Shown: positions 21,743 to 40,567, counted from the stretch's first letter. The stretch is DNA of 64,000 nt from an uncultured Actinomycetota bacterium (GCA_963835405.1 CAWIFV010000009.1:221221-285220); one strand, 5' to 3'. Notes: generated by a model not told the origin, from the sequence alone. A program made the numbers and translations.

Positions 21743-22465
21743 ATGCCCGTTCCTGCGCATGAGGCGGTGTGGTGGGGATCTCTGTTGTGGCTCGTCGGCG
21801 TGAGTTCCGTCGCGTTCCTCGTCGCGTGGTTGACCGGGACCCGCCTGCACATCCGGCGCGGCGTCTACGTCCCGATCCTGCTCGCCGTGACCGCCGGCCT
21901 GGCCGTCGGCTACGTCGCCTGGCTCGGCGTCGGGTTCGCCGACGTCGCGAGCGCGCGCTGGGGCTGGGGAGTCCTCGCGGCCGTCATCGTGCCAATCCTG
22001 CTGTGGAAGCCGATCACCCACCAGCCCGTCGACCGTCACGTCGAAGGACGTCGGCTGCGCTGGGAGCTGTTCTGGGAAGGTGGCGTCTACGGCGTCGCCG
22101 AGGGTGTCCTGCTGTCCGCGCTCCCGCCGTTCATCGCCTGGCAGATGGTCCACTCACTCGGTTGGAGCGGCGCCGGCGGCGGGCTGGCCCGATGGGCACT
22201 ACCGATCGTCGCCGCCGCGGCCGTCGTGGTCATCCATCACCTCGGCTACTGGAACTGCCGCAACAAGATCCTGATCCCGATCACGCTCGCCCTGTCCGTG
22301 CTGACCGTGGGGTTCCTCGTCACGGGGAGCTGGATCGCACCGGCCCTCGGACACGTCTTCATGCACTTCGAGGCCACCATTCACGGCGTCGAGATGCCGC
22401 CGGTCGAACGCAGAACGCCGACGCAGCGCGAGATGGTCCAACCGGCCCTCGTCACCGTCGCCTGA
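21743..22465 (+). CDS. polytopic membrane protein, function unknown
   Basis: The 240-aa ORF has about 6 hydrophobic segments. Confidence 0.55.
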   Translation: MPVPAHEAVWWGSLLWLVGVSSVAFLVAWLTGTRLHIRRGVYVPILLAVTAGLAVGYVAWLGVGFADVASARWGWGVLAAVIVPILLWKPITHQPVDRHVEGRRLRWELFWEGGVYGVAEGVLLSALPPFIAWQMVHSLGWSGAGGGLARWALPIVAAAAVVVIHHLGYWNCRNKILIPITLALSVLTVGFLVTGSWIAPALGHVFMHFEATIHGVEMPPVERRTPTQREMVQPALVTVA

Positions 22466-23416
22466 AGGACGCGACACCAACGCATGCCGGAGCACCTCGG
22501 CGATCACCTGCACGGCGGGTACGGCGGCGGAACATAGTCGCGGCACGGACAGGAACCCGTGCGGCATCCGCGGATGGTTCACATGCCGCACCGGCACTCC
22601 TGCCGCGCGCAGCCGCGTCGCATAGGCAATCCCCTCGTCCCGGAGGACGTCACGGTCGGCGGTGACGACCAGGGCGGGCGGCAGGCCGGCCAGGTCATCG
22701 GCGGCGAGCGGGCTGACCAGCGGCCGGTCCCAGCCATCGGGCCCAACGTACCACTCGAGCATCAACCGACCGGCCGCGACGTCCAGGCCGGCGCCGGCGC
22801 AGGTCTGCCAGGACTCCGAGCTCAGAGTGGAGTCGAGGAACGGGTAGATGAGCGTCTGGTGCCGGATGGCCGGCGCGTCCCCGGCGCGCGCGACGAGGGT
22901 GAGCGCGGCGGTGAGGTTGCCACCGGCGCTGTCCCCGGCGACGGCGATGCGGTCCGGGTCGACACCGGAGAGGCCGCCGTCGGCCAGCCAGCGCAGCGCG
23001 TCGGCGCAGTCGTCGAGAGCGGCCGGGAACGGGTCCTCGGGAGCGAGCCGATAGCCGACCGCGATCACGACGTACGACGTGCGGGCAGCGATCTCGGCGC
23101 ACAACCAGTCGCACCCGGCGAGACCACCAAGGACGAAGCCGCCACCGTGCAGGTAGAGCACAGCCGGGCCCTCGACGGCGCCCGGCGGCCGGTGCACGCG
23201 CACGCGCAACGAGCCGCCGCGGCTGTCGATGACCTGCTCGGTGCTCGTCACGCCGGCCGGCCGGCGCCGCTGCGTCCACCACGGCGGTCGGAACTCCTGT
23301 CGCAGCGCAGCCGGCTTGGCGATCATCTTCGCGGGGTCGGCGAGGCCGAGCCGCCGGGCGAGCCCGTTGGCGGCGTTGAGCGTCCGCACGCCCACCGGTA
23401 GTCCGTCGCGCCGCAC
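22199..23416 (-). CDS. alpha/beta hydrolase, hormone-sensitive-lipase-type esterase
   Basis: It carries the HGGGF oxyanion motif (LYLHGGGFVLGG), YRLAPE and the nucleophile elbow GDSAGG. The recognisable fold ends near 22478. The last 92 codons run antisense through the convergent membrane-protein gene, so the 3' end is uncertain. Confidence 0.75.
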   Translation of the reverse strand: MRRDGLPVGVRTLNAANGLARRLGLADPAKMIAKPAALRQEFRPPWWTQRRRPAGVTSTEQVIDSRGGSLRVRVHRPPGAVEGPAVLYLHGGGFVLGGLAGCDWLCAEIAARTSYVVIAVGYRLAPEDPFPAALDDCADALRWLADGGLSGVDPDRIAVAGDSAGGNLTAALTLVARAGDAPAIRHQTLIYPFLDSTLSSESWQTCAGAGLDVAAGRLMLEWYVGPDGWDRPLVSPLAADDLAGLPPALVVTADRDVLRDEGIAYATRLRAAGVPVRHVNHPRMPHGFLSVPRLCSAAVPAVQVIAEVLRHALVSRPSGDGDEGRLDHLALRRRSAFDRRHLDAVNGGLEVHEDVSEGRCDPAPRDEEPHGQHGQGERDRDQDLVAAVPVAEVMDDHDGRGGDDR

Positions 23417-23418
23417 GG

Positions 23419-24690
23419 TCAGCCCCGCCCCGCGGCAGCGTAGAGGGATCGGACCAGCCGGGCGCCCTCCGCCGGTGTGCCGGCCAGCTCACTGCGGACG
23501 TACGCCACCGCGATGCCGTTGTCCGGGTCGGCGAAGGTCAGCTGGCCCCCCGCACCCTCCGCGCCGTAGGCCCGCGGGTTGGGGCCGAAGTGCGGCAGCT
23601 CACGCGGGGGCATGAGGTTGGTGAGGTAGCCGAGCGTGCGGCCGACCGGCCGCGCGAGCAACTTGCCGACGACCGGGATGCGGAGGTCGACGAGGAGCTC
23701 GTCCGGTGCGCGGACGACCTCGGTCGACCACAGCCGGACGATCTCCGGCGACAGGATCCGGACACCGTCGAGTTCGCCACCGGCGGCGAGCATCGCGTAG
23801 AGCCGGGCCAGCGACCGCGCGGTCGCGGTCGCGTTGCCCGCAGGGATCTCGGCGGACAGCACCTCCTGGTGGCGGAAGAAGTCCTCGGCGCGATCGACGA
23901 TCGTCAGACCCTCGTGGGCGAGGAAAGCCTTGCCGGACAGCGTCGCCGGATCGGCGACCTTGCGCTGGATCCACGGGTAGGCGAGCCGCATCGGCAGGGG
24001 CATCGACTCGCGCATCCGGTTGACGACGTGTGCCACCCGGGGCTGCTCCGCGACCGGTGTACCGAGATGGACGTCGAGCCCCAGTGGCATGACGACCTCC
24101 TGATGGAGGAACCGGCCGATCGTGAGACCGGTGATCCGGCGAACGACCTCACCGACGAGCCAGCCGACGCTCATCGCGTGGTAGCCGGAGCGGGTGCCCG
24201 GCTCCCAGCACGGCTCCGCCGCGGCGAGGCCGGCCGCGATCGCGTCGTAGTCGTTCCAACCGGCGCCGTCCCAGCGGAGCAGGGCCGAGTGCTCCGGCCA
24301 CCACAGCACCCCGGCGGTGTGGGTGAGGACCTGCCGGACCGTCACGTCCCGTTTGCCGGCCTGGGCGAACTCCGGCCAGTAATCCGCGACGCGTGCGTCC
24401 ACGTCGAGCAGCCCCCGGTCGGCGAGCACCTGGGCGGCCAACGCGACGAGCCCCTTCGACACCGACATGAGGACGGTCAGGGTGTCCCCCGTCCATGCCT
24501 CACCGGCGCGCGCAGTGCCGCCCCACAGGTCCACGACCGGCCGGCCGTCGACGTACGCCGCGAACGCGCCCCCACCGACGCCGAGCCGCGGGATCCGGCG
24601 GGCGAACTCGTCGCGGACGTCCTCGTAGCCGGGCACCACCCAGCCACCGATCGTCGCCGAGCTGCCGGGTCGTTGGTCGATAGCGGTCAT
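23419..24690 (-). CDS. serine hydrolase (beta-lactamase / class C-like esterase family)
   Basis: It carries the SxxK motif (SVSKGLVA). ATG 24690 has a GGGGAGAGG Shine-Dalgarno sequence and overlaps the upstream stop (ATGA). Confidence 0.8.
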   Translation of the reverse strand: MTAIDQRPGSSATIGGWVVPGYEDVRDEFARRIPRLGVGGGAFAAYVDGRPVVDLWGGTARAGEAWTGDTLTVLMSVSKGLVALAAQVLADRGLLDVDARVADYWPEFAQAGKRDVTVRQVLTHTAGVLWWPEHSALLRWDGAGWNDYDAIAAGLAAAEPCWEPGTRSGYHAMSVGWLVGEVVRRITGLTIGRFLHQEVVMPLGLDVHLGTPVAEQPRVAHVVNRMRESMPLPMRLAYPWIQRKVADPATLSGKAFLAHEGLTIVDRAEDFFRHQEVLSAEIPAGNATATARSLARLYAMLAAGGELDGVRILSPEIVRLWSTEVVRAPDELLVDLRIPVVGKLLARPVGRTLGYLTNLMPPRELPHFGPNPRAYGAEGAGGQLTFADPDNGIAVAYVRSELAGTPAEGARLVRSLYAAAGRG

Positions 24691-25535
24691 GGCCTCTCCC
24701 CGCAGCATCCGATCAGTGCCGTCACGAGCCGCTGAGCGTGGTCGTCGAGGTCGATGCCGCCGACCTCGGACGCTCGCCGCAGCCGGTAGCGCAGCGTGTT
24801 GGGGTGCACCCGCAGCTCCCCGGCCGTCGGCGCTGTCTCCTGGTTGTTGCGCAGCCACGTGGTCACCGATCGCAGCAGGTCACTGCCCTGGCGGTCGTCG
24901 GCCTCGGCGAGCGCGGCGACCGGGTTGCCGACCGGCAAGGCGGCGGGCAGCGCCTCGACGAGCCGGGCGAGCGTGACCTCCGCCCAGACCTCGTCCACGC
25001 AGAGCAGGCCGGTACCTCGCCGGCCGGCGAGGACCGCGGCGTCGACGGCGTCCCGGGTGGCCGCGGGAAGGTCGGCGATGCCGGTCAGCCGGGCGCTGAT
25101 CCCAGCCGTCACGGCGAGATCGGCGGCCGACTGCCGGCAGGCGTCGAGGGCGATGCGCCGGGCGGCCGGGAGAGCACGGTCGGCACCGGCTCGCCGCGGC
25201 GAGCCGCGCAGCACCGCGACGGCGTGCCCGGCGGAAGTCGTGATGGCGACGACGTCGCGGTCGTTCTCCAGCGCCACTGTCGCGAGCCGACCCGACCTGG
25301 CATCCGGACGGCTGATCGCGACCACCCGGCCGCCGGTGACAGCAGCGTCCAGGACCTGAGCGTCACCGGGCGACGCGGACCGGGCCAGCACGCGGGTCAG
25401 CGCCGCATCGGCCGGCCGTCGTACAGCGGTCTCCCCCTCGCCGGCCAGCAACGCCTCGACGCAGTCGGTGAGCGTCGCGAGTGCTCGGCGCAGCTCCGCG
25501 CTGTCACCGGACGGAGCGGGAAACGTGATCGTCAT
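24687..25535 (-). CDS. PucR/CdaR-like transcriptional regulator (C-terminal HTH)
   Basis: The C-terminal segment TAGELRVHPNTLRYRLRRASEVGGIDL is typical of PucR-type HTH domains. The ATGA start overlaps the upstream lipoprotein stop. Confidence 0.7.
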   Translation of the reverse strand: MTITFPAPSGDSAELRRALATLTDCVEALLAGEGETAVRRPADAALTRVLARSASPGDAQVLDAAVTGGRVVAISRPDARSGRLATVALENDRDVVAITTSAGHAVAVLRGSPRRAGADRALPAARRIALDACRQSAADLAVTAGISARLTGIADLPAATRDAVDAAVLAGRRGTGLLCVDEVWAEVTLARLVEALPAALPVGNPVAALAEADDRQGSDLLRSVTTWLRNNQETAPTAGELRVHPNTLRYRLRRASEVGGIDLDDHAQRLVTALIGCCGERP

Positions 25536-27031
25536 GGCATCGGATAGGTGCGGCCGACGTACCGGAAGCAGGAGCAGGCGTCGCGCCACACGACGTGCCG
25601 GTAGACCCGCGGGACGTTGTTGCGCCACGCTGGCCGGAACGACGAGGCACCGTCGTAGTTGAGCGTGCTGAGGAAGTCGCCGACCTTTCCAGCCCACCGA
25701 TGACGGTCGCGCCGGCACTGCCACCGCCGACCTGTAGTGCCCGCTCGTAGACGAAGAGCGACTCGCAGGCGCTGTAGGCGAAGCCGAAGTCGGCGGCCGA
25801 ACGCGGCACTATCCCCTGGGACTCGAGCAGCCCGAGGCAGCGGCGCTGCGTCGCATTGGGCTTCGAGTACTGCGCAGGCGTGACGTCCTGGCTCTCCAGC
25901 CACCCGTAGCCGTGGACGTTGCGCAGCTGGCTGGTGGGCGCCTGGCCGATCTGGATGGCCAGGTTGGCGAGCGAGGAGACGATCCACGTGGGGTGATAGC
26001 CCTGGGACTCCGCAGCCTCGCTCAGGACCAGGAGCGCCGGCCCTTCGGAGACCGTGAAGAACGTGATGCGGTCGACACCCTTGCTGCGATAGGTGAGCAT
26101 GGCGTTGCCCGCCGAGCTCACCGCGTTGGCCGTGCTCGCGTTGTTACCCGTGCCGCAGCCATAGTCCTGCACCGCCGCGACGTTGATGTGTGCTTGTTTC
26201 AGGTAGGGCTCGATCGTGGTCTTCCAGGCGTGCTGCGTGCCGGGGCAGTCGTCGACGAGCACGCCGAGCTTGTTCTGCGGGGTGAGCACGCCCGTGGCCA
26301 TCGCGCCCTGGATCTTGGCGATCGACCGTTCGTCGATGGTCGGCGTCTCGAGCGCCCAGAACAGCGGCCACTGCCGGAGCTCGGCGTTGTCGGGGATGTT
26401 GAACGACGTCGTGAGGTGCGGGATCCCCGCACGGGCGAGGCAGGACTCGAAGTTGCGCTGGTAGTCGAAGGCGTAGCCGAGGACGACCTGCACGTGGTCG
26501 TCCTGGGTGAACGCGGCGCAGGCCGCCTCGAAGTCGGTCGACCAGTTGGTGGTCCCGGTATCGGTCTTGGCATAGACCGGCACGATCTTGCGGCCGTTCA
26601 GGCCACCGCGCCGGTTCATCGCGCGGACCAGCGCCTCGTCGACGTCACGCTCGTCGTAGGTGTTGCCGAGACTGATGCCGAAGTCATCGGCGTTGCTGAC
26701 GCCGGTGAGCAGCATCCCGACCTTGATCGGCCCATGGGTCGAATTCGCCGCCGGCGGTGGCACGCCGACGGTCACGGGCGCGGCAGGGCCACGCGAGGCG
26801 TCGACGCGGGGAGCACCAGCGCCGGTCGTCGCGCCCGGCGCGACGGCGTCGTGACCCATCCCGTCGCCCGTCGACGATGCCGCGCCCGATCCGCCCGGCG
26901 CGGCGCTCACCCCGCCCTCGACGGCGCCCGGCGCCGCCAGCCCGGAACCGGCGAGCGACGCCGTCCCCGTCGCCTGGATCGTGCTGCCGCAGCCGGCGGT
27001 GAGGGCGAGCGCGGCAACCGCGAGCAGCGGC

Positions 27032-27039
<8 letters not shown>
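25532..27039 (-). pseudogene. binding-protein-like lipoprotein (paralog family, copy 1) with one frame change near the 3' end
   Basis: It has a lipobox (LALTAGC). The body is alignable with the copy at 33179-34720. At about 25690 the reading frame breaks where the paralog reads GLGKVG: CTGGAAAG is present where CTGGGAAAG would restore the frame. The conserved tail WRDACSCFRYVGRTYPMP lies in the other frame. Confidence 0.75.
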
Positions 27040-28583
<1,544 letters not shown>

Positions 28584-28622
28584 CTGGGCCCCCTTCGCCA
28601 CGGTGCGGTGGCGTCCCGGTTG

Positions 28623-28650
28623 CGGTACTGAACTGCAGGTGACGGTACCG
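28623..28650. promoter_or_regulatory. dyad CGGTAC-N16-GTACCG (site C), candidate TetR operator
   Basis: Read directly. It lies 40-67 nt upstream of the acyl-CoA synthetase start at 28583, in a 110-nt intergenic region. Confidence 0.55.
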
Positions 28651-28692
28651 TGCCGAAACGGGGTGTCAAGGGACGTACGCCGCACATCGGCG

Positions 28693-29955
28693 TCAGCACA
28701 CGCAGGCGTAGACCGCGCCGATGAGGTCGGCCGGCGGTATCGCCGCGCCGGGCGTCCAGTCGGTGACGACATGGGCGATGCTCAGCCGGGTGGCGGGGTC
28801 GCCGAGGACCCACTGCCCGCCGTAACCACCGGAACCGAACGCCTCGCGGTGCGGGCCCAACGCCCAGCGGCCACGCGCCTTGTGGTTGGGCACGAGTCCG
28901 AGGCCGGTGGGGACGGGGGGCACCGCGAACCGCAGCGACCGGGGCAGCGCCGTGCGCATGACCGCGTCGCGGCCGCGGACCTGCTCGGTCGCCATCGCGC
29001 GCACCGTCTCCGGTCGCAGCACGCCCACCCCGTCTAGCGACCCGCCGCCGGCCAACGCCGCGAAGAGCCGCGCGAGCGATCCGGCCGTTGCGACACCGTT
29101 GCTCGCCGGGACCTCCGCGGCGAGGAACTCCGGGTGCCGCAGCAGCTCGGGTGCCCGCTCGAGGATGTTCGTCCGCCCGTCGGCGAGCAGTGCCGTCCCG
29201 GCCAGGGTCCCCGGGTCGCGGCTGCGCCGGGCGGCAGCCGACGCGAGCAAGCGCGCCGGCCAGGGCCCGGCCTTCGGGTCGGGTGGCCAGACGTCGGCGA
29301 CCAGCGCCCGGTCGGCCTCGCCGGTGCCGAGCACACAACGCAGCCCGAGCGGGCCTGCGACATCGTCGCGGAAGTGCTCCCCCACCGTGCGGCCGCTGGC
29401 CCGGCGGACCACCTCGTTGACGAGCCAACCGAAGCTCACGGCGTGGTAGCCGTGCCGGGTGCCCGGCGGCCAGGCCGGCCGGGCGGCGGCCAGCCCGCGG
29501 GCGATGGCTGCGTCGTCGCCCCACCCCGCGGCGTCGGTGAGCAGCGCCTGCTGGCCGTCGAAGCCGAGCACCCCGGCCGAGTGGAGCAGCAGGTGGCGCA
29601 GCGTCACCGCGTCCTTGCCATGGGCGGCGAACTCCGGCCACCACGCCACGATCGGGGTGTCGAGGTCGAGCGTGCCGGCTTCGACGAGGCGGTGGACGAC
29701 GATCGCCGCCCAGCTCTTCGTCACCGAGGCGACCGGGGCGAGCGTCGCTTCCGTCCACGGCCGATCGGGGGCGGCCCAGCCGCCCCACACGTCGAGCACG
29801 GACTCGCCGTCGACGTAGACGGCGACCGCGCCACCGCCCCGGCCGAACGGCCGCGCCCGGTCGCGCAACAGCGCGGCGACCGGCTCCATGAGCGGCGTCA
29901 CGACGCCGGACAGTCCCGAGCCGACGTCGCCCGCCGCGCGGGAGCCGAGGGTCAT
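28693..29955 (-). CDS. serine hydrolase (beta-lactamase family), second copy
   Basis: It carries the SxxK motif (SVTKSWAA) and resembles the hydrolase at 23419-24690 overall. Confidence 0.8.
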   Translation of the reverse strand: MTLGSRAAGDVGSGLSGVVTPLMEPVAALLRDRARPFGRGGGAVAVYVDGESVLDVWGGWAAPDRPWTEATLAPVASVTKSWAAIVVHRLVEAGTLDLDTPIVAWWPEFAAHGKDAVTLRHLLLHSAGVLGFDGQQALLTDAAGWGDDAAIARGLAAARPAWPPGTRHGYHAVSFGWLVNEVVRRASGRTVGEHFRDDVAGPLGLRCVLGTGEADRALVADVWPPDPKAGPWPARLLASAAARRSRDPGTLAGTALLADGRTNILERAPELLRHPEFLAAEVPASNGVATAGSLARLFAALAGGGSLDGVGVLRPETVRAMATEQVRGRDAVMRTALPRSLRFAVPPVPTGLGLVPNHKARGRWALGPHREAFGSGGYGGQWVLGDPATRLSIAHVVTDWTPGAAIPPADLIGAVYACVC

Positions 29956-29958
29956 CGC

Positions 29959-30591
29959 TCAGCCGGCGGAGCCGGACCGGAGCCCGTCCGCGAAGAAGGT
30001 GAGGAACTCTTCGAGCGCCTCGGCGAAGCTCACCCCGGCGGTGCGCAGCACCGCGGGCTCCTGGAGCCGGGCAAGCCCGGCGTCGAGCACCTCCGCGGCC
30101 ACCCGGGGGTGGATGCGAGCGAACTCGCCGGCTTCGATGCCCTCGGTGAGCATCGCGACGACGACGTTCGTCGCGAACCGGAAGTGCGCCGTCACCAAAG
30201 CGTGTGCGGCCGGCTCGTCGGCGACGTCCTCGGCGAAGCTCACCGTCGCCCGGTGCAGCTCGGTCAACCCCTTGGTGAGGAACGCCCGGAGCCGGTCCAG
30301 ATGCGTCCCGCCGTCCTGCGCCGCGTCGTGGGCACGCCGGGCGAGACGGCGCAGCAACCGATCGATGACGAGCAGGACGAGCGACTCCTTGGTGTCGGCC
30401 AGCTCGTAGAGCGTGCGGCGGGAGCAGTGCAGCCGCTCGGCCAGCCCACCGACGGTGAGGTCGCGGAACCCCTCGGTGAGGATGATCGTCTCGATGCCGT
30501 CGAGCAGCTGCACGTGCCGGGCGCCGTACTGCCGGCCCGCGGCGAGGTCCTCCGGTGGGGCCCAGACGTGGGTCGTCGCGGCGCTCGTCAC
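29959..30591 (-). CDS. TetR-family transcriptional regulator
   Basis: The N-terminal HTH is recognisable (TEGFRDLTVGGLAERLHCSRRTLYELADTKESL). GTG 30591 overlaps the GH3 stop (GTGA). The start is uncertain. Confidence 0.8.
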   Translation of the reverse strand: MTSAATTHVWAPPEDLAAGRQYGARHVQLLDGIETIILTEGFRDLTVGGLAERLHCSRRTLYELADTKESLVLLVIDRLLRRLARRAHDAAQDGGTHLDRLRAFLTKGLTELHRATVSFAEDVADEPAAHALVTAHFRFATNVVVAMLTEGIEAGEFARIHPRVAAEVLDAGLARLQEPAVLRTAGVSFAEALEEFLTFFADGLRSGSAG

Positions 30592-33080
30592 GCCGGTACT
30601 GTAGCGAGAGACTTGGTACCGGACAACTCCACCGGGACGACATGCCGGATGTCGGCCGACGACCGGCCGATGTGCAACTCGTAGGTCCCCGAGTGGAGCG
30701 TCCAGCCCCCGCCGCCGGTCACACCATCGGCCGTCTCCCAGTAGGCGAACGCGCGGTCGCCCAGGGTCAGCTGGGCGACGCCCGACTCGCCCGCGGCAAG
30801 GCTGAGCTTTGCGAACGCCTTGAGCTCCTTGTCCGGGCGGGTCACAGGTCCGGGCGGTGGCGCGACGTAGCACTGCACCACCTCGCTGCCGGCCCGGTCT
30901 CCCGTGTTGGTCACCGGGACCTCGACGACGAGGGTGTCGCCCGGCCGGAAGGTGGCCGCGGACAGCCGCGGCGTGCCGATCCCGAACGTCGTGTAGGACA
31001 GCCCGTGCCCGAAGGGGAAGCGGACCGGCACCCCTTTGGTCTCGTGCCAGCGATAGCCGAGCAGCACGCCTTCGTCGTAGCGGACCCGGCCGTGCGTGGC
31101 GGGGAAGTTCCCGTACGCCGGGGTGTCCTCGAGCCGCAGCGGCACACTCGTGGGCAGTCGGCCGCCCGGGTCGGCATCCCCGACGAGGACGTCGGCGAGG
31201 GCGGGCGACATCTCCTGGCCGCCGAACCAGACGTTGAGCACCGCCCGGCATCGCGGTTCCCACGGCATCGCGACCACGGTGCCTGCGTTGACCACGACCA
31301 CCGTGCGGGGGTTGGCGGCCAGCACCCGCTCGACGAGCTCGTCCTGACCGCCGGGCAGGTGCAGGGACGTCCGGTCGAAGCCCTCGGACTCGACGGCCGC
31401 TCCGGTGCCCACGACGACGACGGCGACGTCAGCTGCGGCGGCGGCCGCGACGGCACGGTCGAGCAGGTCGGCGGGAGCCGGCCGACGGCAGCCGATCCGG
31501 ACCCCGCTCAGGCGCGGGGCACCGACATTGGCGAACTCGACCGTGACCTCGACCGGGCGACCGCGGGCCAGCTCGACGGTCGCCGTGATCTCGGCACTGC
31601 CGAAGCCGAGGAACGAACTCCCCGGGGGCAGGTCGCCCGCCGTTGCGTCGAGGGCGACGTCGCCGTCGACCAGCAGCCGGGCCCGACCCAGCTGCGCGAG
31701 GGAGAAGGTGTGCGGCCCATCCGCGGCGGGGGCGAACCGCCCGGTGGCGCGCACCGAGAACTCCGGCAGCTCTGGGACCGGGCTCGGGTCGAAGAACGTC
31801 AGGTCGGTGTCCGACCGCAGGCGGTGCTCCACCGCGTCACCGGCGAAGGCGTGCCCCGCGAACACCTCCAGCAGCAGTCCGCGCCGCCCGTCGGGCGCGG
31901 TGAGCTCGCCTTCGGTCAGCACCGGTGCCGGCCCGGGCACGTCCACACCGGGCGCGTGGACGACGCGCACCTGCTCGCCGAACCGGTCGCGGATCGCCTG
32001 CAACGGTGAGATCTCGACCTCGGCCGCCAGGTTCGCGGAGCCGCCGCCCACGATCTCCGCGGTGGCCGCGAGGGGCCCGATGACGGCGACGGAGCGCACT
32101 GTGTCCAGGTCGACGGGGAGCAGGGCGCCGTCGTTCTTCAGCAGCACGGCCCCGACCGCCGCCGCCTCGCGCGCCAGCACCCGGCGGTCGTCCCGTGCGC
32201 CGGGTCCGGCCGCGGGCCCGGTACCGGTGTCGGTGCCGCCACCGACGCGGTCGACGAGCCGCAGCATCCGTCGGGCGGCCCGCTCCACCGTGTCGGCGTC
32301 GACCAGCCCGGTCCGTACGGCGGCGGCGAGCGCCGGGCCGAGCGCCCGGCCCGGACCGGGCATCTCCAGGTCGGTGCCTGCGCGGGCGGCGTCGGCGGTG
32401 GACGCGGCTGCCATCCAGTCGGTGACGACGAACCCGTCGAAGCCCCACTGCCCCCGGAGCACGCGGCCCAGCAGCCAGGCGTGGTCGGCGCACTGGACAC
32501 CGTTGAGCCGGTTGTAGGCGGTCATGACGCCGAGCACGCCACCGTCGCGCACCGCCATCTCGAACGGCACCAGGTAGAGCTCGCGGAGCGTCCGCTCGTC
32601 GACCACCGAGTCCATCGTCATGCGCTCGGTTTCGGATTCGTTGCCGGCGAAGTGCTTCACGGTCGCAGCGACGCCCTGCGACTGCACACCGCGCACGTAC
32701 GCCGCGGCAAGCGTCCCGGCCAGCAGCGGGTCCTCCGAGTAGGACTCGAAGTTGCGACCGGCCAGCGGTGAGCGGTGCAGGTTGACCGTCGGTGCGAGCA
32801 GCACGTGAGCACCCCGGGCCCGGGTCTCGGCGCCGACGAGCGCACCCACTCGCTCCACCAGGGCGGTGTCCCAGCTCGCGCCGAGCGCCGTACCGCACGG
32901 GACGCAGGTCGCCCGTGCGCCGTCGACGCCGGTGCCGCGAGCCCCGCTCGGCCCGTCGGTCATCCGGAGAGCCGGGATGCCGAGGCGCTCGACGGCGGTT
33001 GTCGACCAGAAGTCCGCGCCGGCGGTGAGCGATGCCTTCTCCTCGAGGGTCATCCGGGCCAGCACGTCCTCGACGTCCAT
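30588..33080 (-). CDS. glycoside hydrolase family 3 beta-glucosidase
   Basis: The 830-aa product shows GH3 features (MTLEEKASLTAG, RMTDGPSGARG, GFVVTDW and a C-terminal fibronectin-like region). ATG 33080 has a GGAGAGGAGG Shine-Dalgarno sequence. Confidence 0.9.
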   Translation of the reverse strand: MDVEDVLARMTLEEKASLTAGADFWSTTAVERLGIPALRMTDGPSGARGTGVDGARATCVPCGTALGASWDTALVERVGALVGAETRARGAHVLLAPTVNLHRSPLAGRNFESYSEDPLLAGTLAAAYVRGVQSQGVAATVKHFAGNESETERMTMDSVVDERTLRELYLVPFEMAVRDGGVLGVMTAYNRLNGVQCADHAWLLGRVLRGQWGFDGFVVTDWMAAASTADAARAGTDLEMPGPGRALGPALAAAVRTGLVDADTVERAARRMLRLVDRVGGGTDTGTGPAAGPGARDDRRVLAREAAAVGAVLLKNDGALLPVDLDTVRSVAVIGPLAATAEIVGGGSANLAAEVEISPLQAIRDRFGEQVRVVHAPGVDVPGPAPVLTEGELTAPDGRRGLLLEVFAGHAFAGDAVEHRLRSDTDLTFFDPSPVPELPEFSVRATGRFAPAADGPHTFSLAQLGRARLLVDGDVALDATAGDLPPGSSFLGFGSAEITATVELARGRPVEVTVEFANVGAPRLSGVRIGCRRPAPADLLDRAVAAAAAADVAVVVVGTGAAVESEGFDRTSLHLPGGQDELVERVLAANPRTVVVVNAGTVVAMPWEPRCRAVLNVWFGGQEMSPALADVLVGDADPGGRLPTSVPLRLEDTPAYGNFPATHGRVRYDEGVLLGYRWHETKGVPVRFPFGHGLSYTTFGIGTPRLSAATFRPGDTLVVEVPVTNTGDRAGSEVVQCYVAPPPGPVTRPDKELKAFAKLSLAAGESGVAQLTLGDRAFAYWETADGVTGGGGWTLHSGTYELHIGRSSADIRHVVPVELSGTKSLATVPA
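30594..30621. promoter_or_regulatory. dyad CGGTAC-N16-GTACCG (site B), candidate TetR operator
   Basis: Read directly. It lies 3 nt upstream of the TetR start codon, inside the last codons of the GH3 gene. Confidence 0.55.
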
Positions 33081-33122
33081 GGCGCGCCTCCTCTCCCCGG
33101 GCGCCGGGTCAGGACCCTTGCA

Positions 33123-33150
33123 CGGTACCGAATTGCGCCGTACAGTACCG
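33123..33150. promoter_or_regulatory. dyad CGGTAC-N16-GTACCG (site A), candidate TetR operator
   Basis: Read directly, in the 98-nt divergent region between the GH3 start (33080) and the lipoprotein start (33179). Confidence 0.55.
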
Positions 33151-33178
33151 CACATTCCCCCACCAAAGGTGACAGGTC

Positions 33179-34720
33179 ATGACGTTCTCGCGCGCAGTGA
33201 CTCGCCGGCTAGGTCGCAGCGTCGCGCTCGGGGCCGTGGCCGCCTGCGCCGCGTGCGGCAGCACGGTGGCGGGGGTCGGCACCGTCGCGACCGGCCCGGC
33301 CGTCGACGGTCTCTCGTCATCGGCCGGGTCGCAGACCTTCTCGGCCCCGGGTCCCGCGGGTGCGCCGGCTGCGGACCCGGGGGCGGCCGCCGTGGGGATC
33401 GGGCCGCCGGCGGCCGGCGGGGCCGACACGACGACCGGGCCCGTCCCGGGGGCCGGCGCCGCGGTCGTCACGCCCACCACCGCCGGCGCCGCGCCAAGGG
33501 CGGACGTGACCGGCCCGATCAAGGTCGGGATCCTGCTGACGGCCGTCGGCAACGCCGACGCCGTCGGGATCGAGGTCGGCAACACCTACTCGGAGCGCGA
33601 GTTCGACGACGCGTTGATCGAGGCGCTCAACAAGCGGGGCGGGTTGCACGGTCGACGGATCATCCCGGTCTACGCCAAGACGGACACGGCGAGCACGGAC
33701 TGGAGCACCGACTTCCAGAAGGCGTGCGCGAAGTTCACGCAGGACGACCGGGTCGACGTCGTCCTCGGCTCGGACTTCGCCTACTTCGCGAACTTCGAAC
33801 GGTGCCTCGCCCGGGCGGGCATCCCGCATCTCAGCAACTCCTCGAACGTCCCCGACAACCAGGAGTTGCGGCAGTTCCCACTGCTGCGAGCGCTCATCGT
33901 GCCCACCATCGACAAGCGGTCGATCGCGAAACTGCAGGGTGCGATCAACTCGGGCTTCCTGACCCCGGAGAACAAGCTGGGGGTCATCACCGACAGCTGT
34001 CCCGGCACCCAGCGCGCCTGGCAGCAGGTCGTCAAACCGTTCCTGGCCCGCCATCACATCACCGTCGCGGCGACCGCTGACGAAGGCTGCGCCGACGGCT
34101 ACAACTCCTCCTTCTCCGCGGCGGGTGCCGCCGTCGGCAACGCGACCCTGTCGTTCCGCTCCAAGGGTGTGGACCGGATCACCTTCATCACCGTCTCCGA
34201 GTCGGGAACGATGATCGTGATGGCGCACGACGCGTCGTCGCAGCACTACTACCCCGGCTGGATCCTGTCCTCGCTCGCCGGCACGGCACTCCTCCAGGAT
34301 CAGGCGCCGCAGGACGAGATGCGCAACACCAGGGTCTACGGGTGGCTGCCGTCCCAGGACGTCAAGCCGTCGCAGTACCCCGAGCCGAACGCCGCGCAAC
34401 GCCGCTGCTACTCGCTCGTGAAGTCGCAAGGCGTCACCCCGGTCTCGACCGCGGACTACTCCTACACGCAGAGCATCTGCGAGGCGGTCTTCGTCTACGA
34501 GGCTGCGCTCGGCAACAGCCACGTCGACACCGAGGGGCGGGCCGTCATCGCCGGTCTGGGAAAGGTGGGCCGCAGCTACCAGAGCGTGTTCGACATCGGT
34601 GGCGCCGCCGACTTCAGCATCGACCGGTTGAACGACGCGCCGCGGCTCTATCGCGAGGCCCGCTGGGAAGCCCATTGCAGCTGCTTCGCCTACGCCGGCC
34701 CCACCTACCCGATGCCGTGA
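33179..34720 (+). CDS. binding-protein-like lipoprotein (paralog family, copy 2), intact
   Basis: It has a lipobox (AACAACG), a low-complexity linker and a type-I binding-protein-like body. The conserved tail is WEAHCSCFAYAGPTYPMP. Confidence 0.8.
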   Translation: MTFSRAVTRRLGRSVALGAVAACAACGSTVAGVGTVATGPAVDGLSSSAGSQTFSAPGPAGAPAADPGAAAVGIGPPAAGGADTTTGPVPGAGAAVVTPTTAGAAPRADVTGPIKVGILLTAVGNADAVGIEVGNTYSEREFDDALIEALNKRGGLHGRRIIPVYAKTDTASTDWSTDFQKACAKFTQDDRVDVVLGSDFAYFANFERCLARAGIPHLSNSSNVPDNQELRQFPLLRALIVPTIDKRSIAKLQGAINSGFLTPENKLGVITDSCPGTQRAWQQVVKPFLARHHITVAATADEGCADGYNSSFSAAGAAVGNATLSFRSKGVDRITFITVSESGTMIVMAHDASSQHYYPGWILSSLAGTALLQDQAPQDEMRNTRVYGWLPSQDVKPSQYPEPNAAQRRCYSLVKSQGVTPVSTADYSYTQSICEAVFVYEAALGNSHVDTEGRAVIAGLGKVGRSYQSVFDIGGAADFSIDRLNDAPRLYREARWEAHCSCFAYAGPTYPMP

Positions 34721-34734
34721 CGAGGGAGACCCTG

Positions 34735-35601
34735 ATGACCGAGCTGGTCACCGATGTCCGGCGACACCCGTGGAACCGGGACTTCCGCTGGCAGTCGCGC
34801 ACCGGGCCGTTCCAGGTGCTCACCCCCGAGCACGCAGAACAGTTCGACCGGGACGGCTTCGTCGTCCTCGAGGACGTCTTCGACGCAAACGAGGTCGCGG
34901 CCGTCACCGCCTGCACCGACGCGGCCGACGAGCGCACCGAGGCGATGCTCCGCACCCGGGCAGACGGGCGGATCAGCATCGCGGAGTCCGGCTCCATCAG
35001 CTTCACCGCGCATCTGGTCGCGGAGTTCCCGGCCGTCCGCGAGTTCGCCGCCCACCCCACCCTGGCCGGAATATGCGCCGACGCCCTCGGCCCGGACGTG
35101 AACCTCTACTGGGACCAGGCGGTCTACAAGAAGCCCGAGAAGCCGCGCCGGTTCCCGTGGCACCAGGACAACGGCTACACCTTTGTCGAGCCACAGCAAT
35201 ACGTGACCTGCTGGGTGGCGCTCACCGACGCCACTGTCGACAACGGCTGCCCGCAGGTCGTGCCGGGCCTGCACCGGCTCGGCACCCTCCACCACGACTA
35301 CGTCGACCCGCTCGGTCTCGAGTGCCTTTCCGATCCGCCCGGCGTGGTTGCCGCCCCCGTTCGCGCCGGTGGGGTCGTGCTGTTCTCGTCCCTGACGCCG
35401 CACCTGACGGGCCCGAACACCACCGACCAGGTGCGCAAGGCCTACATCCTGCAGTACGCGCCGGCCGGTGCGCATGCCCTCACCGGGGAGCCGGACGCCC
35501 CGCCCACCGGCCGGGAGCCGTGTGACCGGCCGGACCGGCAGTTCCCCGTCGTCCGCGGCGGCGGCCGCGTCCCACCACCCACCTGGAGCCCGGCACAGTG
35601 A
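34735..35601 (+). CDS. phytanoyl-CoA dioxygenase (PhyH) family Fe(II)/2-oxoglutarate oxygenase
   Basis: It carries the HxD motif (WHQDNGY) and a distal His (LTPHLTGPN). A GAGGGAGA Shine-Dalgarno sequence precedes ATG 34735. Confidence 0.8.
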
Positions 35602-36532
35602 CCGCTCTCGATCTGTCCGGACGCGTCGTGGTCGTCACCGGCGCCGGCGCCGGCCTCGGCCGCTCACACGCTCTGCTGCTCGCCGCGCACGGCGCTGCCG
35701 TCGTCGTCAACGATCTCGGCGGCGCCGCCGACGGCACCGGTTCGGACCGGTACGCCGGCCGACGCGGTCGTCGCCGAGATCGTCGCCGCCGGCGGGGCCG
35801 CGGTGGCGAGCCATGCCAGCGTCGGGACCGGGGACGGCGCCGCGGAGATCGTCTCGTCCGCCCTCGACGAATTCGGCCGGGTCGACGCCGTCGTCAACAA
35901 TGCAGGCATCCTGCGGGACCGCTCGCTGACCAAGCTCACCGCCGACGACATCGACCGTGTCCTCGACGTCCATCTCAAGGGCACGATCTTCGTCACGCAG
36001 GCGGCGTTCCCGCACATGAAGGCAAACGGATTCGGGCGGTTCGTGCACACGACGAGTGCGGCGGGGCTGTTCGGCAACTTCGGCCAGGCCAACTATGCCG
36101 CCGCAAAGATGGGCATCGTCGGCTTCTCCCGCACGGTCGCCGAGGAGGGCGCCCGCGCCGGCATCACGAGCAACGTCATCGCCCCGGTGGCCCGCACCCG
36201 ACTGACCGGAGAGCTCCTCGGGACCGCTCGCCGACCAGCTCGACCCGAGGCCCGTGTCGGCTCTCGTCTCCTACCTCGTCAGCCCCGGGTGCACGCTGTC
36301 GCGCGAGGTCATCTCGTGTGCCGGCGGCCGTTACGCCCGGGTGTTCACCGGCCTCACTCCCGGATGGCGGGCGGACCCGGCGACCGTGACACCGGAGGAC
36401 GTCGGCGCGCATCTCGACGACATCCTCACGCTCGACGGGTTCACCGTCCCGGTCAACGCCATGGAGGAGATCAAGCAGATCGCGGCGATGGTCAGTGCGC
36501 CGGTGAGCCCGCAACCGGTCGGCGCGGCCTGA
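35598..36532 (+). pseudogene. short-chain dehydrogenase/reductase (MFE-2/Hsd4A-like hydroxyacyl-CoA dehydrogenase type) with two frame changes
   Basis: TGAGAGLG is in frame 1; NNAG, the YAAAK catalytic motif and [12 protein letters not shown] are in frame 2; [22 protein letters not shown] and the C-terminus are in frame 3. The switches fall near 35745-35760 and near 36222. Confidence 0.7.
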
Positions 36533-36563
36533 TGCGCGACCACGACGAGAGCCAGGAGGGCTA

Positions 36564-37757
36564 GTGCCAGGGAAGGTGTTCGTCGCCGGGGTCGGCATGA
36601 CGAAGTTCGACAAGCCAGGACGCCGTGAGGCGGACTATCCGCAGCTCGTCGAGGAGGCCGGCACGCGCGCACTTGCCGATGCCGGCATCGGCTACCACGA
36701 GGTCGAGCAGGTCGTCGCGGGCTACGTCTACGGCGACTCCTGCTCCGGTCAGAGGGCGGCGTACGAGCTCGGGCTGACCGGCCGACCGGTCTACAACCTC
36801 AACAACAACTGCGCGACCGGCTCGACGGCTCTCGCCCTCGCCCGGCAGCTCGTCGCCGGCGGCGTTGCCGACGTCGTGCTCGCGCTCGGGTTCGAGAAGA
36901 TGCAGCGCGGATCGCTGGCTCTGGGTTCGACGGATCGGGCGAACCCGCTCCAGCCGCACATCGACGCGGTCGCCGCCGTACACGCGCCGGAGCAGTCCCC
37001 GATCGCTCCGCAGATGTTCGGCAACGCCGGACGCGAGCACATGGCCCGCTACGGATCGACGCCGCGGCACTTCGCGATGGTCGGCGAGAAGAACCACCGG
37101 CATTCGGTGAACAACCCCTACGCGCAGTTCCAGGACGCCTACACCCTCGATGACATCGAGAACGCGCCCCTCGTCCACGCGCCGTTGACCCGGCTGCAGT
37201 GCTCCCCCACCTCCGACGGAGCGGCCGCGGTCGTCGTGATGAGCGAGCGGGCCGTCGCAGCCCGGGGGCTCGGCGCAACCGCCGTCGAGATCGCCGGCCA
37301 GGGCATGGCCAGCGACACCAGCGAGTCGTTCGACCCACCGAGCGCGATCGCAGCTGTCGGTGTCGGCATGACGCGGCAAGCCGCAGGCATCGCCTACGAA
37401 GAGGCCGGGCTCGGCCCCGACGATGCCCAGGTGGTCGAGCTCCACGACTGCTTCTCCACCAACGAGGTCCTCAGCTATGAGGCGCTCGGCCTGGCGCCCG
37501 ACGGCAAGGGACACCTCCTCGTCGAGGAGGACGCCACGACGTACGGCGGCCAGTGGGTCGTCAACCCGTCCGGCGGCCTCATCAGCAAGGGCCACCCGTT
37601 GGGAGTCACCGGGCTCGCCCAGTGCGCCGAGCTGACCTGGCAGCTGCGCGGCACCGCGGGTCTGCGCCAGGTCGCGGACGCGCGGGTGGCCATCCAGCAC
37701 AACATCGGGCTCGGTGGCCTGGCCGTCGTGACCGTTTACCGCGCGCCCGCCGCGTGA
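36564..37757 (+). CDS. SCP-x / lipid-transfer-protein-type thiolase
   Basis: The translation (KVFVAGVGMTKFDKPG, NLNNNCATGSTAL, GGLISKGHPLGVTG) is typical of non-specific lipid-transfer thiolases. An AGGAGGG Shine-Dalgarno sequence precedes the start. Confidence 0.85.
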   Translation: MPGKVFVAGVGMTKFDKPGRREADYPQLVEEAGTRALADAGIGYHEVEQVVAGYVYGDSCSGQRAAYELGLTGRPVYNLNNNCATGSTALALARQLVAGGVADVVLALGFEKMQRGSLALGSTDRANPLQPHIDAVAAVHAPEQSPIAPQMFGNAGREHMARYGSTPRHFAMVGEKNHRHSVNNPYAQFQDAYTLDDIENAPLVHAPLTRLQCSPTSDGAAAVVVMSERAVAARGLGATAVEIAGQGMASDTSESFDPPSAIAAVGVGMTRQAAGIAYEEAGLGPDDAQVVELHDCFSTNEVLSYEALGLAPDGKGHLLVEEDATTYGGQWVVNPSGGLISKGHPLGVTGLAQCAELTWQLRGTAGLRQVADARVAIQHNIGLGGLAVVTVYRAPAA

Positions 37758-40487: not shown

Positions 40488-40539
40488 GAAGCGGCGAAGG
40501 AGCGTTGCCAGAACGTCGGACAGACTCTATCTTGCCAGG

Positions 40540-40551
40540 TTACACGAGTAA
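40540..40551. promoter_or_regulatory. CG-centred 12-bp near-palindrome TTACACGAGTAA, candidate LacI operator
   Basis: It lies between the divergent LacI gene and the esterase operon, 17 nt upstream of GTG 40568. Five of six pairs are complementary. Confidence 0.3.
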
Positions 40552-40567
40552 ACAGAGGGGTCGATAC

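What the first reader, a model, noticed from the sequence alone, without database searches (positions are those of the whole stretch)
28623..33150. Three copies of a 28-bp dyad, CGGTAC-N16-GTACCG, at promoter-proximal sites around a TetR gene
Read directly from the sequence:
- 33123-33150: CGGTAC cgaattgcgccgtaca GTACCG
- 30594-30621: CGGTAC tgtagcgagagacttg GTACCG
- 28623-28650: CGGTAC tgaactgcaggtgacg GTACCG

The spacer is exactly 16 nt in all three. The half-sites extend to CGGTACYG on the left; the right halves read CAGTACCG, TGGTACCG and CGGTACCG.

Site A lies in the divergent region between the GH3 beta-glucosidase gene and a lipoprotein/PhyH/SDR/thiolase operon. Site B abuts the TetR start codon. 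Site C lies 40-67 nt upstream of the acyl-CoA synthetase gene that heads the lipoprotein/PucR/hydrolase/esterase string.

Scanning the other intergenic regions by eye, I did not find this arrangement again. I infer an operator set, most simply for the TetR at 29959-30591. It would tie a glycosidase, two beta-lactamase-like hydrolases, an esterase, acyl-CoA metabolism and two orphan lipoproteins into one regulon of unknown substrate.
Basis: partly seen in the sequence, partly recalled or inferred. Interest (0 to 1): 0.72.

Follow-up and report, generated by a model that had tools for sequence, protein, structure and literature searches.

The report
Conserved operator of a TetR repressor clade
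The three 28-bp dyads are real. They are the conserved promoter-overlapping binding site of the neighbouring TetR-type repressor, which probably switches a lipid/ester-degradation gene set on and off in an uncultured actinobacterium; this is a well-supported but ordinary kind of bacterial gene switch.

Summary
CGGTAC-N16-GTACCG occurs exactly three times in 64 kb, at the stated coordinates, against 0 expected.

The interpretation as an operator set of the adjacent TetR is supported by comparative evidence.
- In 13 of 14 independent lineages carrying a TetR homolog (84% down to 40% identity; metagenomes and MAGs of Mycobacteriales, Acidimicrobiia and Ilumatobacter), the same dyad with the same spacing lies at or just upstream of tetR or its operon.
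- In 189 kb of such loci there are 18 sites with at most one mismatch, against 0.34 expected. Fifteen are fully intergenic, although only 8.4% of that DNA is intergenic.
- 673 kb of unrelated loci hold none.
- A reverse search of metagenomes with the motif found four high-GC hits, each directly upstream of a TetR ortholog.
- The recognition helix CSRRTLYE is invariant or nearly so across 71 homologs.

The core is GGTACC repeated 20 bp centre to centre. It overlaps a TTGnnC-N17-TAcAGT promoter, and tetR looks leaderless.

- Site B lies inside the last 10 codons of the GH3 ORF.
- One TetR dimer cannot span the two arms, so a QacR-like pair of dimers is the likely mode.

Binding, repression and the ligand (probably an acyl-CoA) are inferred, not shown. 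This is a new member of a known kind.

The parts
33123..33150 (.). Site A: CGGTACCG-N12-CAGTACCG, in the 98-bp divergent region between GH3 (-) and the lipoprotein/PhyH/SDR/thiolase string (+)
   Evidence: It is 28 nt from the lipoprotein ATG (33179) and 42 nt from the GH3 ATG (33080).
33118..33146 (+). Promoter-like elements overlapping site A: -35 TTGCAC (33118-33123), a 17-nt spacer, and -10 TACAGT (33141-33146), pointing at the lipoprotein operon
   Evidence: Read. The same arrangement is seen at orthologous tetR promoters. The E. coli-consensus scan did not call it. The assignment uses the actinobacterial TTGnnn/TAnnnT consensus, which is my own knowledge.
30594..30621 (.). Site B: on the - strand it reads CGGTACCA-N12-CAGTACCG. 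It ends 2 nt before the TetR GTG and lies inside the last 10 codons of the GH3 ORF.
30598..30626 (-). Promoter-like elements for tetR: -35 TTGTCC (30626-30621), a 17-nt spacer, and -10 TACAGT (30603-30598). The GTG at 30591 lies 7 nt after the -10, which implies a leaderless tetR mRNA.
   Evidence: Read. A 7-9 nt gap between the -10 and the start codon recurs in L037, L043, L044, L056 and L061.
28623..28650 (.). Site C: on the - strand it reads CGGTACCG-N12-CAGTACCG, in the 109-bp gap between the beta-lactamase-like gene and the acyl-CoA synthetase gene
   Evidence: There is no convincing -35/-10 here (TTCAGT lacks A2), so it may act as an internal operator or roadblock.
29959..30591 (-). TetR-family regulator (210 aa, GTG start), the proposed binder. 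Recognition helix is C56-S-R-R-T-L-Y-E63.
   Evidence: Pfam TetR_N and TetR_C_27 both score just under their cut-offs. The AF2 model has pLDDT 90.5. Foldseek gives probability 1.0 to TetR structures. The helix is invariant or nearly so across 71 homologs.
30588..33080 (-). GH3 beta-glucosidase-like gene (830 aa). Its stop codon overlaps the tetR start as GTGA.
28693..29955 (-). Beta-lactamase-fold esterase-like gene (LipL/LipE-like), directly downstream of tetR
27032..28583 (-). Acyl-CoA synthetase (AMP-binding), split by one frameshift near 27873/27874. It is the first gene after site C.
25504..27042 (-). A lipoprotein of about 500 aa, a paralog of the gene at 33179-34720
   Evidence: The syntenic gene in relatives hits Peripla_BP_6.
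24687..25505 (-). PucR-type HTH (HTH_30) regulator inside the operon
23419..24690 (-). Second beta-lactamase-fold hydrolase
22199..23416 (-). Abhydrolase_3 (HSL-type) esterase. Its start is uncertain.
   Evidence: L037 has the same gene order.
33179..34720 (+). Lipoprotein of 513 aa with weak SBP (Peripla_BP_5) similarity; first gene downstream of site A
34735..37757 (+). PhyH dioxygenase (34735-35601), SDR (starts 35598; frameshifted between 35717 and 35755) and an SCP2-type thiolase/lipid-transfer protein (36564-37757)

Best explanation
The 28-bp dyad is the operator of the TetR-family repressor encoded at 29959-30591. Its information lies in two GGTACC-centred boxes (symmetrised half-site rCGGTACYR) exactly 20 bp apart centre to centre. 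The inner 12 bp are not conserved.

At tetR (site B) and at the lipoprotein operon (site A) the left box abuts a -35-like TTGnnC. The right box overlaps a -10-like TAcAGT and the transcription start. For tetR, that start is the start codon itself, giving a leaderless mRNA. Bound repressor would therefore occlude RNA polymerase. Site C would do the same, or act as a roadblock, in front of the acyl-CoA synthetase / lipoprotein / PucR / hydrolase / esterase string.

The arms are about 70 A apart, whereas the two HTHs of one TetR dimer are 31-38 A apart. The site is therefore most likely filled by two dimers, as in the QacR/IcaR 28-bp operators.

A pathway intermediate, most plausibly an acyl-CoA made by the co-regulated synthetase, would release the repressor. 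This would induce a set of genes for uptake (SBP-like lipoproteins), de-esterification or deglycosylation (esterases, GH3) and beta-oxidation-type breakdown (PhyH, SDR, thiolase) of a lipophilic ester or glycoside.

Shown: the motif, its non-random occurrence, its fixed spacing, its intergenic and promoter-proximal placement, and its co-inheritance with this TetR clade.

Inferred: that TetR binds it, that it represses, the stoichiometry and the ligand.
For: - Three exact copies against 0 expected.
- The same dyad is found 2-46 nt upstream of the called or corrected start of TetR homologs at 84, 79, 76, 69, 64, 63, 62, 57, 49 and 47% identity. It overlaps the called start of the 40% homolog, and it lies upstream of the SBP gene that precedes the 72% homolog.
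- Eighteen sites with at most one mismatch in 189 kb of such loci, against 0.34 expected. Fifteen of 18 are fully intergenic against 8.4% intergenic DNA.
- Zero sites in 673 kb of unrelated loci. Spacing N16 accounts for 22 of 31 GGTAC/GTACC pairs; one other spacing occurs twice and the rest once.
- A metagenome scan with the promoter-plus-operator pattern returned 8 stretches. All four high-GC ones lie directly upstream of a TetR ortholog. The four low-GC ones have no TetR and look like chance.
- The footprint alignment shows only CGGTACC and T..AGTACC as invariant, with flanks and spacer free.
- In the recognition helix CSRRTLYE, C56, S57, R58, R59, L61 and Y62 are invariant, and T60 and E63 are at least 90% conserved, in 71 homologs down to 36% identity.
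- TetR is the only regulator shared by all loci. PucR is missing from L039, L043, L045, L049, L050, L051 and L052.
- TetR fold confirmed.
- Published classes: single-dimer operators are 15-17 bp and dimer-of-dimers operators 22-32 bp, with QacR and IcaR at 28 bp; HTH spacing is 31-38 A (PMC5397183, PMC4150764, PMC2275139).
- Gene order tetR-ACS-lipoprotein-(PucR)-beta-lactamase-esterase is conserved.
- Other sites in relatives precede thiolase/MaoC, SBP/ABC, MFS, esterase and SDR-thiolase genes.
Against: - There is no binding or expression data of any kind.
- One peripheral homolog (P0120, 39% identity, same recognition helix) has no site within 6 kb either side.
- The inner 12 bp are not conserved, whereas in QacR-type operators the proximal subunits also read bases. 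The two-dimer model is therefore only an analogy.
- The E. coli-consensus promoter scan calls no promoter here.
- Site C and the GH3 side of site A lack a recognisable -35/-10.
- Pfam TetR_N and TetR_C_27 scores are just below their gathering thresholds.
- The ligand guess rests on gene context and on weak structural neighbours: KstR2 and FadR at 15-18% identity and TM 0.55-0.73.
- Two regulon genes (ACS, SDR) carry frameshifts. Either the assembly has indel errors or the pathway is decaying.
- Only 64 kb of a 328-kb contig could be scanned.
Confidence: 0.8

Rival explanations
1. The dyad is a real operator but is bound by a different regulator: the PucR-type protein in the operon, the LacI-type protein 9 kb away, or a global factor encoded elsewhere. 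On this view TetR is merely one of its targets.
For: A PucR HTH_30 gene sits in the site-C operon in the window and in L037, and one is nearby in L047 and L048. A LacI gene follows tetR in L051 and lies at 39501-40526 in the window. The arm separation is atypical for a single TetR dimer. P0120 keeps the recognition helix but has no site.
Against: PucR is absent within 10 kb in seven motif-bearing lineages, and LacI is absent from most. The only gene always next to the site is tetR. The site tracks tetR even when all neighbouring genes differ, as in L045, L048 and L052. Known LacI operators are contiguous 14-20 bp palindromes (my own knowledge).
Confidence: 0.1
2. The conserved blocks are promoter elements (-35/-10) for an alternative or ECF sigma factor, not a repressor site.
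For: The two blocks are separated by 16 nt, a typical promoter spacer. Many sites lie just upstream of start codons.
Against: The element is two-fold symmetric, and fully symmetric copies exist (CGGTACC-N14-GGTACCG in L045, L049 and L051). It occurs in tandem arrays with GGTACC boxes spaced 20, 10 and 20 bp apart (L045). Its distance from start codons ranges from 2 to about 350 nt. Ordinary TTGnnC-N17-TAnnnT hexamers overlap it in register. No sigma gene was seen among the window genes annotated (about 20-43 kb) or in the listed genes of the related loci.
Confidence: 0.04
3. The copies are chance, or a structural element such as an RNA hairpin, a repeat element or KpnI-site relics, with no regulatory role.
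For: The arms can pair as a 6-7 bp stem. GGTACC is a common restriction site.
Against: Zero are expected by chance. RNA folding energies are no better than shuffles (z = -1.4, +0.15 and -0.26). The spacer sequence is free while its length is fixed. The element is conserved across lineages whose TetR has diverged to 40% identity.
Confidence: 0.01

Closest known systems
QacR IR1 and IcaR ica operators (TetR family, dimer-of-dimers class)
   Same: Both are 28-bp operators lying next to or over the regulated gene's promoter or start. They are filled by two TetR dimers on opposite faces with overlapping footprints. The class as a whole has operators of 22-32 bp (PMC4150764, PMC2275139, PMC5397183). 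The element here is 28 bp long, with its strongest conservation where the distal subunits would sit.
   Different: Here only the outer 8-9 bp of each arm are conserved and the central 12 bp are free. The half-site (rCGGTACYR) is unrelated in sequence. The boxes are themselves short palindromes and can be arrayed at 10-bp phasing. The protein is only a remote homolog. Stoichiometry is untested.
Acyl-CoA-sensing TetR regulators: FadR of Bacillus subtilis, B. halodurans and Sulfolobus, and KstR2 of mycobacteria
   Same: These are TetR repressors of fatty-acid or steroid-CoA catabolic genes that are released by acyl-CoA thioesters. B. halodurans FadR binds as a dimer of dimers (PMC5397183). They are among the top structural neighbours of the model. 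The regulon context here is similar: acyl-CoA synthetase and thiolase in the window, plus MaoC hydratase and acyl-CoA dehydrogenase in related loci.
   Different: Identity is only 15-20%. The phmmer E-values against PDB chains are 0.0067 for B. subtilis FadR (3whb) and 0.0059 for 1vi0. The B. halodurans FadR operator sequence, GATGAATGAATACTCATTCAT (PMC5397183), is unrelated. There is no evidence here for the ligand.
Classic autoregulated TetR/tetO-type switch (single dimer, 15-17 bp palindrome)
   Same: The repressor gene is adjacent to its targets. A palindromic operator overlaps the promoter, and autoregulation is implied.
   Different: The arm separation (22 bp between hexamer centres) is about twice what one dimer can span.

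Membership tests
TetR-family repressor/operator switch | The regulator has an N-terminal TetR HTH and an all-helical ligand-binding domain | tested here: met
   Pfam TetR_N scores 22.5 bits (cut-off 24) and TetR_C_27 scores 24.3 (cut-off 26.1), both sub-threshold. The AF2 model has pLDDT 90.5 and ten helices. Foldseek gives probability 1.0 to many TetR structures.
TetR-family repressor/operator switch | A dyad-symmetric operator at or over the promoter of its own gene or an adjacent gene | tested here: met
   Site B is 2 nt from the tetR start. The same holds in 12 of 14 homolog lineages; in L047 the site precedes the tetR operon, and P0120 has none. The site overlaps TTGnnC-N17-TAcAGT.
TetR-family repressor/operator switch | The protein binds the operator and a small-molecule ligand releases it | not testable with these tools
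   This needs EMSA, footprinting or ITC with purified protein and candidate acyl-CoAs.
Dimer-of-dimers TetR class (QacR, IcaR, CgmR, CprB, Ms6564, B. halodurans FadR) | Operator length of 22-32 bp, longer than the 15-17 bp of single-dimer operators | tested here: met
   The conserved element spans 28-30 bp. Class limits are taken from PMC4150764 and PMC5397183.
Dimer-of-dimers TetR class (QacR, IcaR, CgmR, CprB, Ms6564, B. halodurans FadR) | Four HTHs contact the DNA (1 DNA : 4 monomers), and the proximal subunits also read inner bases | tested here: inconclusive
   The inner 12 bp show almost no conservation beyond a weak A/T preference at positions 9-11. Stoichiometry cannot be tested here.
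Acyl-CoA-responsive FadR/KstR2-type TetR regulators | Sequence membership in those subfamilies | tested here: not met
   There is no NCBIfam hit. The best PDB sequence E-values are 5e-5 to 7e-3, with 15-18% identity.
Acyl-CoA-responsive FadR/KstR2-type TetR regulators | The regulon is made up of fatty-acid or CoA-ester catabolic genes | tested here: met
   Sites precede acyl-CoA synthetase, thiolase, MaoC hydratase, acyl-CoA dehydrogenase, SDR and esterase genes in the window and in L049-L051.
Alternative-sigma (ECF) promoter | Asymmetric -35/-10 blocks at a fixed short distance from transcription starts, with a cognate sigma gene | tested here: not met
   The element is two-fold symmetric, occurs in arrays and lies at variable distances from genes. 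No sigma gene was seen among the window genes annotated (about 20-43 kb) or in the related loci.

The most novel reading that the evidence does not exclude
This TetR clade may use a recognition geometry not yet described for the family. Two short, individually palindromic GGTACC boxes sit exactly two helical turns apart, with a sequence-neutral centre. They can be extended into same-face arrays (boxes spaced 20, 10 and 20 bp in L045). That would imply cooperative same-face oligomerisation or bridging, rather than the opposite-face, fully sequence-read binding seen in QacR.
Probability: 0.2. Interest if true: 0.5.

Novelty: new member of a known kind. Interest (0 to 1): 0.35.

Why it matters
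It gives a concrete, testable operator (rCGGTACYR-N12-YRGTACCGy) and a candidate regulon for a TetR clade that so far is known only from uncultured Actinomycetota and has no characterised member.

It links SBP-like lipoproteins of about 500 aa with no significant Pfam match, beta-lactamase-fold esterases, a GH3 glycosidase and CoA-dependent catabolic genes into one unit. That narrows the search for their substrate.

The fixed 20-bp box spacing with a free centre is a useful case for understanding how TetR proteins of the two-dimer class achieve specificity. The repressor/operator pair could also serve as an orthogonal switch.

It does not change any general principle. Autoregulated TetR switches over leaderless promoters are common in actinobacteria.

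Tried and rejected
It was useless for orthology and was reused as a 673-kb negative control.
- The E. coli-consensus promoter and terminator scan over 28300-33400 found nothing. The promoter reading therefore rests on the actinobacterial TTGnnn/TAnnnT pattern and on its conservation in register.
- The literature search for a GGTACC-based TetR operator found nothing relevant. The QacR-DNA structure paper (PMC125875) is not held.
- The one-mismatch hit at 3518-3545 is coding and breaks an invariant position, so I rejected it as chance.
- The GGTACC pair at 49442/49469 has the wrong spacing (27 bp) and lies in coding sequence that encodes Gly-Thr repeats in a secreted protein. I rejected it.
- The RNA hairpin reading was rejected because folding is no better than shuffles.
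- PucR, and LacI, as the binder was rejected on co-occurrence.
- The P0120 locus (39% identity) was examined to extend the family and has no site. I keep it as a counter-example.
- I could not find a promoter for GH3 on the minus strand of the site-A region.

Full report
**Observation**

The pattern CGGTAC-N16-GTACCG occurs exactly three times in the 64-kb window, at 28623-28650, 30594-30621 and 33123-33150. No match appeared in any of 100 dinucleotide-preserving shuffles. Allowing one mismatch adds a single hit at 3518-3545. That hit is inside a coding region and breaks a position that is invariant in the family, so I treat it as chance. GGTACC itself occurs only nine times in the window, and three of those are in these sites.

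**Gene map**

The window has 71% G+C, so I called genes by third-position G+C and by Pfam and NCBIfam matches.

On the minus strand, in the direction of transcription:
- GH3 beta-glucosidase-like gene, 33080-30588
- TetR, 30591-29959
- beta-lactamase-fold (LipL/LipE-like) hydrolase, 29955-28693
- site C
- acyl-CoA synthetase, 28583-27032
- a lipoprotein of about 500 aa, 27042-25504
- PucR-type HTH protein, 25505-24687
- a second beta-lactamase-fold hydrolase, 24690-23419
- an Abhydrolase_3 esterase

On the plus strand after site A:
- a paralogous lipoprotein, 33179-34720
- PhyH dioxygenase
- an SDR
- an SCP2-type thiolase

The GH3 ORF ends at a TGA (30588-30590) that overlaps the TetR GTG (GTGA). 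Site B is therefore inside the last ten codons of GH3. The homologous part of GH3 ends near residue 813 of 830, so the operator is read as a non-conserved tail.

**Is the motif conserved where the TetR is conserved?**

A first attempt to fetch orthologous loci from reference genomes failed (remote TetRs only). A protein search then found about 200 homolog clusters, nearly all from metagenomes and MAGs labelled Mycobacteriales, Acidimicrobiales, Ilumatobacter or Actinobacteria. I fetched the DNA around 13 of them, spanning 84% to 39% identity.

In the ten lineages at 84, 79, 76, 69, 64, 63, 57, 49, 47 and 40% identity, a copy of the dyad with the same 16-nt spacing lies 2-46 nt upstream of the called or corrected tetR start, or overlaps the called start (40%). 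In the 72% lineage (L047) it lies upstream of the SBP gene that is followed at 20 nt by tetR. Two further lineages came from the reverse search below, giving 13 of 14 with the motif.

Several loci have extra copies:
- L045 has five in 10 kb, all intergenic. These include four GGTACC boxes spaced 20, 10 and 20 bp apart in the MFS/tetR divergent region.
- L050 has four.
- L049 and L051 each have a second copy between tetR and the next operon, like site C here.

Over the 11 annotated loci (189 kb) there are 18 sites with at most one mismatch, against 0.34 expected from Markov shuffles. Fifteen are wholly intergenic, although only 8.4% of the DNA is intergenic. The other three overlap an over-extended tetR annotation, a tetR start, and the 3' end of an upstream gene. 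The 673 kb of unrelated loci contain none. Among all GGTAC...GTACC pairs in the related loci and the window, spacing N16 accounts for 22 of 31; one other spacing occurs twice and the rest once.

**Reverse test**

I scanned the metagenome collection with TTGNNCGGTACC-N11-TANAGTACC. It returned eight stretches. All four high-G+C ones (three lineages; TetR identity 79, 76 and 62%, the last two new) have a TetR ortholog starting 4-19 nt downstream. The four low-G+C ones (38-58% G+C) have no TetR and look like chance matches.

**Anatomy**

The symmetrised consensus of 26 sites is rCGGTACYR, followed by a weakly A/T-rich trinucleotide. G2, G3, T4, A5 and C6 are 96-100% conserved, and the central 12 bp carry no information. 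Because GGTACC is itself a palindrome, the element can be described equally well as two 6-8 bp palindromic boxes 20 bp apart centre to centre, which is two helical turns.

Oriented towards tetR, the closer relatives read ccTTGnnCGGTACCr-N11-TAcAGTACCG, followed after 2-6 nt by the start codon. That is a -35-like TTGnnC, a 17-nt spacer and a -10-like TAcAGT. The start codon begins 7-9 nt after the -10, the arrangement expected for a leaderless mRNA. (The actinobacterial promoter consensus and the frequency of leaderless genes are my own knowledge. The E. coli-consensus scanner called nothing.)

Site A has the same arrangement, TTGCAC-N17-TACAGT, pointing at the lipoprotein operon. Site B has TTGTCC-N17-TACAGT, with the TetR GTG 7 nt after the -10. 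Site C and the GH3-facing side of site A have no convincing hexamers. As RNA, the three sites fold no better than shuffled sequence.

**Who binds?**

TetR is the only regulator present in every motif-bearing locus. The PucR-type gene is missing within 10 kb in seven of the 11 annotated loci, and a LacI-type gene is present in only two.

In the TetR recognition helix C56-S-R-R-T-L-Y-E63, six residues (C56, S57, R58, R59, L61, Y62) are invariant and T60 and E63 are at least 90% conserved across 71 homologs whose overall identity falls to 36%. This matches the near-invariant GGTAC core. The protein models confidently as a TetR fold (pLDDT 90.5) and matches TetR structures at probability 1.0.

One counter-example exists. 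The 39%-identical homolog P0120 keeps the helix but has no site within 6 kb on either side.

**How it probably works**

The centres of the two conserved hexamers are 22 bp (about 75 A) apart. The two HTHs of a TetR dimer are 31-38 A apart. Single-dimer operators are 15-17 bp, whereas operators filled by two dimers are 22-32 bp, and QacR and IcaR use 28 bp (PMC4150764, PMC5397183, PMC2275139). I therefore infer that two dimers fill each site, with the distal subunits reading the GGTACC boxes.

The lack of conservation in the centre is a difference from QacR-type operators, and it leaves room for a different geometry. Bound over -35, -10 and +1, the protein would repress its own gene and the flanking operons.

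By context, the inducer is most plausibly an acyl-CoA or a related pathway intermediate. The supporting context is as follows:
- An acyl-CoA synthetase is the most constant neighbour.
- Esterases, thiolase, MaoC, acyl-CoA dehydrogenase and SBP/ABC genes lie downstream of sites in relatives.
- The acyl-CoA-sensing FadR and KstR2 are among the structural neighbours, though only at 15-18% identity.

This last step is the weakest.

**Comparison with the known, and novelty**

This is an autoregulated TetR switch, which is a known kind. The operator sequence, and the clade in uncultured Actinomycetota that uses it, appear uncharacterised. There was no NCBIfam match, no close PDB relative and no literature hit for such an operator. 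I file it as a new member of a known kind. A modest chance remains that the box geometry represents a new binding mode.

**Limits**

- There are no experimental data.
- Only 64 kb of a 328-kb contig was available.
- Regulon membership of genes behind the first gene of each string rests on overlapping or short gaps and on conserved gene order.
- Two regulon genes carry frameshifts.

Noticed in passing
window 27860-27880: The acyl-CoA synthetase downstream of site C is split by a single frameshift. The N-terminal 237 aa are in one frame up to about 27873, and the rest is in another frame from 27874 (tblastn against the L037 ortholog). This is either a pseudogene or an assembly indel.
   Followed up: partly
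window 35717-35755: The SDR gene of the site-A operon also changes frame after about 40 codons. Past that point its called ORF translates as arginine-rich nonsense.
   Followed up: partly
window 30588-30623: The GH3 stop TGA overlaps the TetR GTG as GTGA. The last 10-11 GH3 codons (SGTKSLATVPA) are encoded by the tetR promoter and operator. GH3 is absent from all related loci, so it looks like an insertion that reads through into the operator.
   Followed up: partly
window 25504-27042, 33179-34720, 38017-39405, 41368-42966: There are four paralogous proteins of about 460-530 aa; the first two have clear signal peptide/lipobox N-termini. Pfam similarity to Peripla_BP_5 is only weak and is seen in just two of them. 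Three share a C-terminal CxCFAY motif. Their counterparts in relatives hit Peripla_BP_6 and sometimes sit beside LivH/M-type ABC genes. No transporter genes were found among the window genes annotated (about 20-43 kb).
   Followed up: partly
window 39501-42966: A second cluster (LacI-family regulator, Abhydrolase_3 esterase, SBP-like lipoprotein) resembles the TetR regulon in content but carries no copy of the dyad.
   Followed up: no
window 47500-49700: This stretch has lower G+C (61-63% against about 71%). It holds a 468-aa probably secreted protein (48209-49615, minus strand) and a 209-aa ORF, and may be horizontally acquired. The GGTACC pair at 49442/49469 inside it encodes Gly-Thr and is unrelated to the operator.
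   Followed up: partly
L045 5576-5633 (also L046 1476-1533): Two dyads lie back to back, giving four GGTACC boxes spaced 20, 10 and 20 bp apart in the MFS/tetR divergent region. All four fall on one helical face, which suggests higher-order cooperative binding.
   Followed up: no
window 33113-33153 vs L043 9960-10000: Site A and the tetR promoter of the 63%-identical Mycobacteriales MAG are similar even in the otherwise free spacer (GAATTGCGCCGTA against GAATGCGCCCTTA). Site A may derive from an ancestral tetR promoter.
   Followed up: no
window 28670-28680: A CGTACG box lies 30 bp (three helical turns) from the right box of site C, inside the same intergenic gap. It could be a weak auxiliary box or chance.
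   Followed up: no
L054 5319-5350 and L060 521-552: Low-G+C (43-47%) metagenome contigs matched the search pattern through a longer, unrelated palindrome (GGTACCCTGTAG-TCTT-CTACAGTACCGG). No TetR is nearby.
   Followed up: no
L062 6001-6672: The TetR homolog P0120 (39% identity, same CSRRTLYE helix) lies next to an SDR and an integrase-like gene. It has no GGTACC dyad within 6 kb, so either its targets are elsewhere or its specificity differs.
   Followed up: partly
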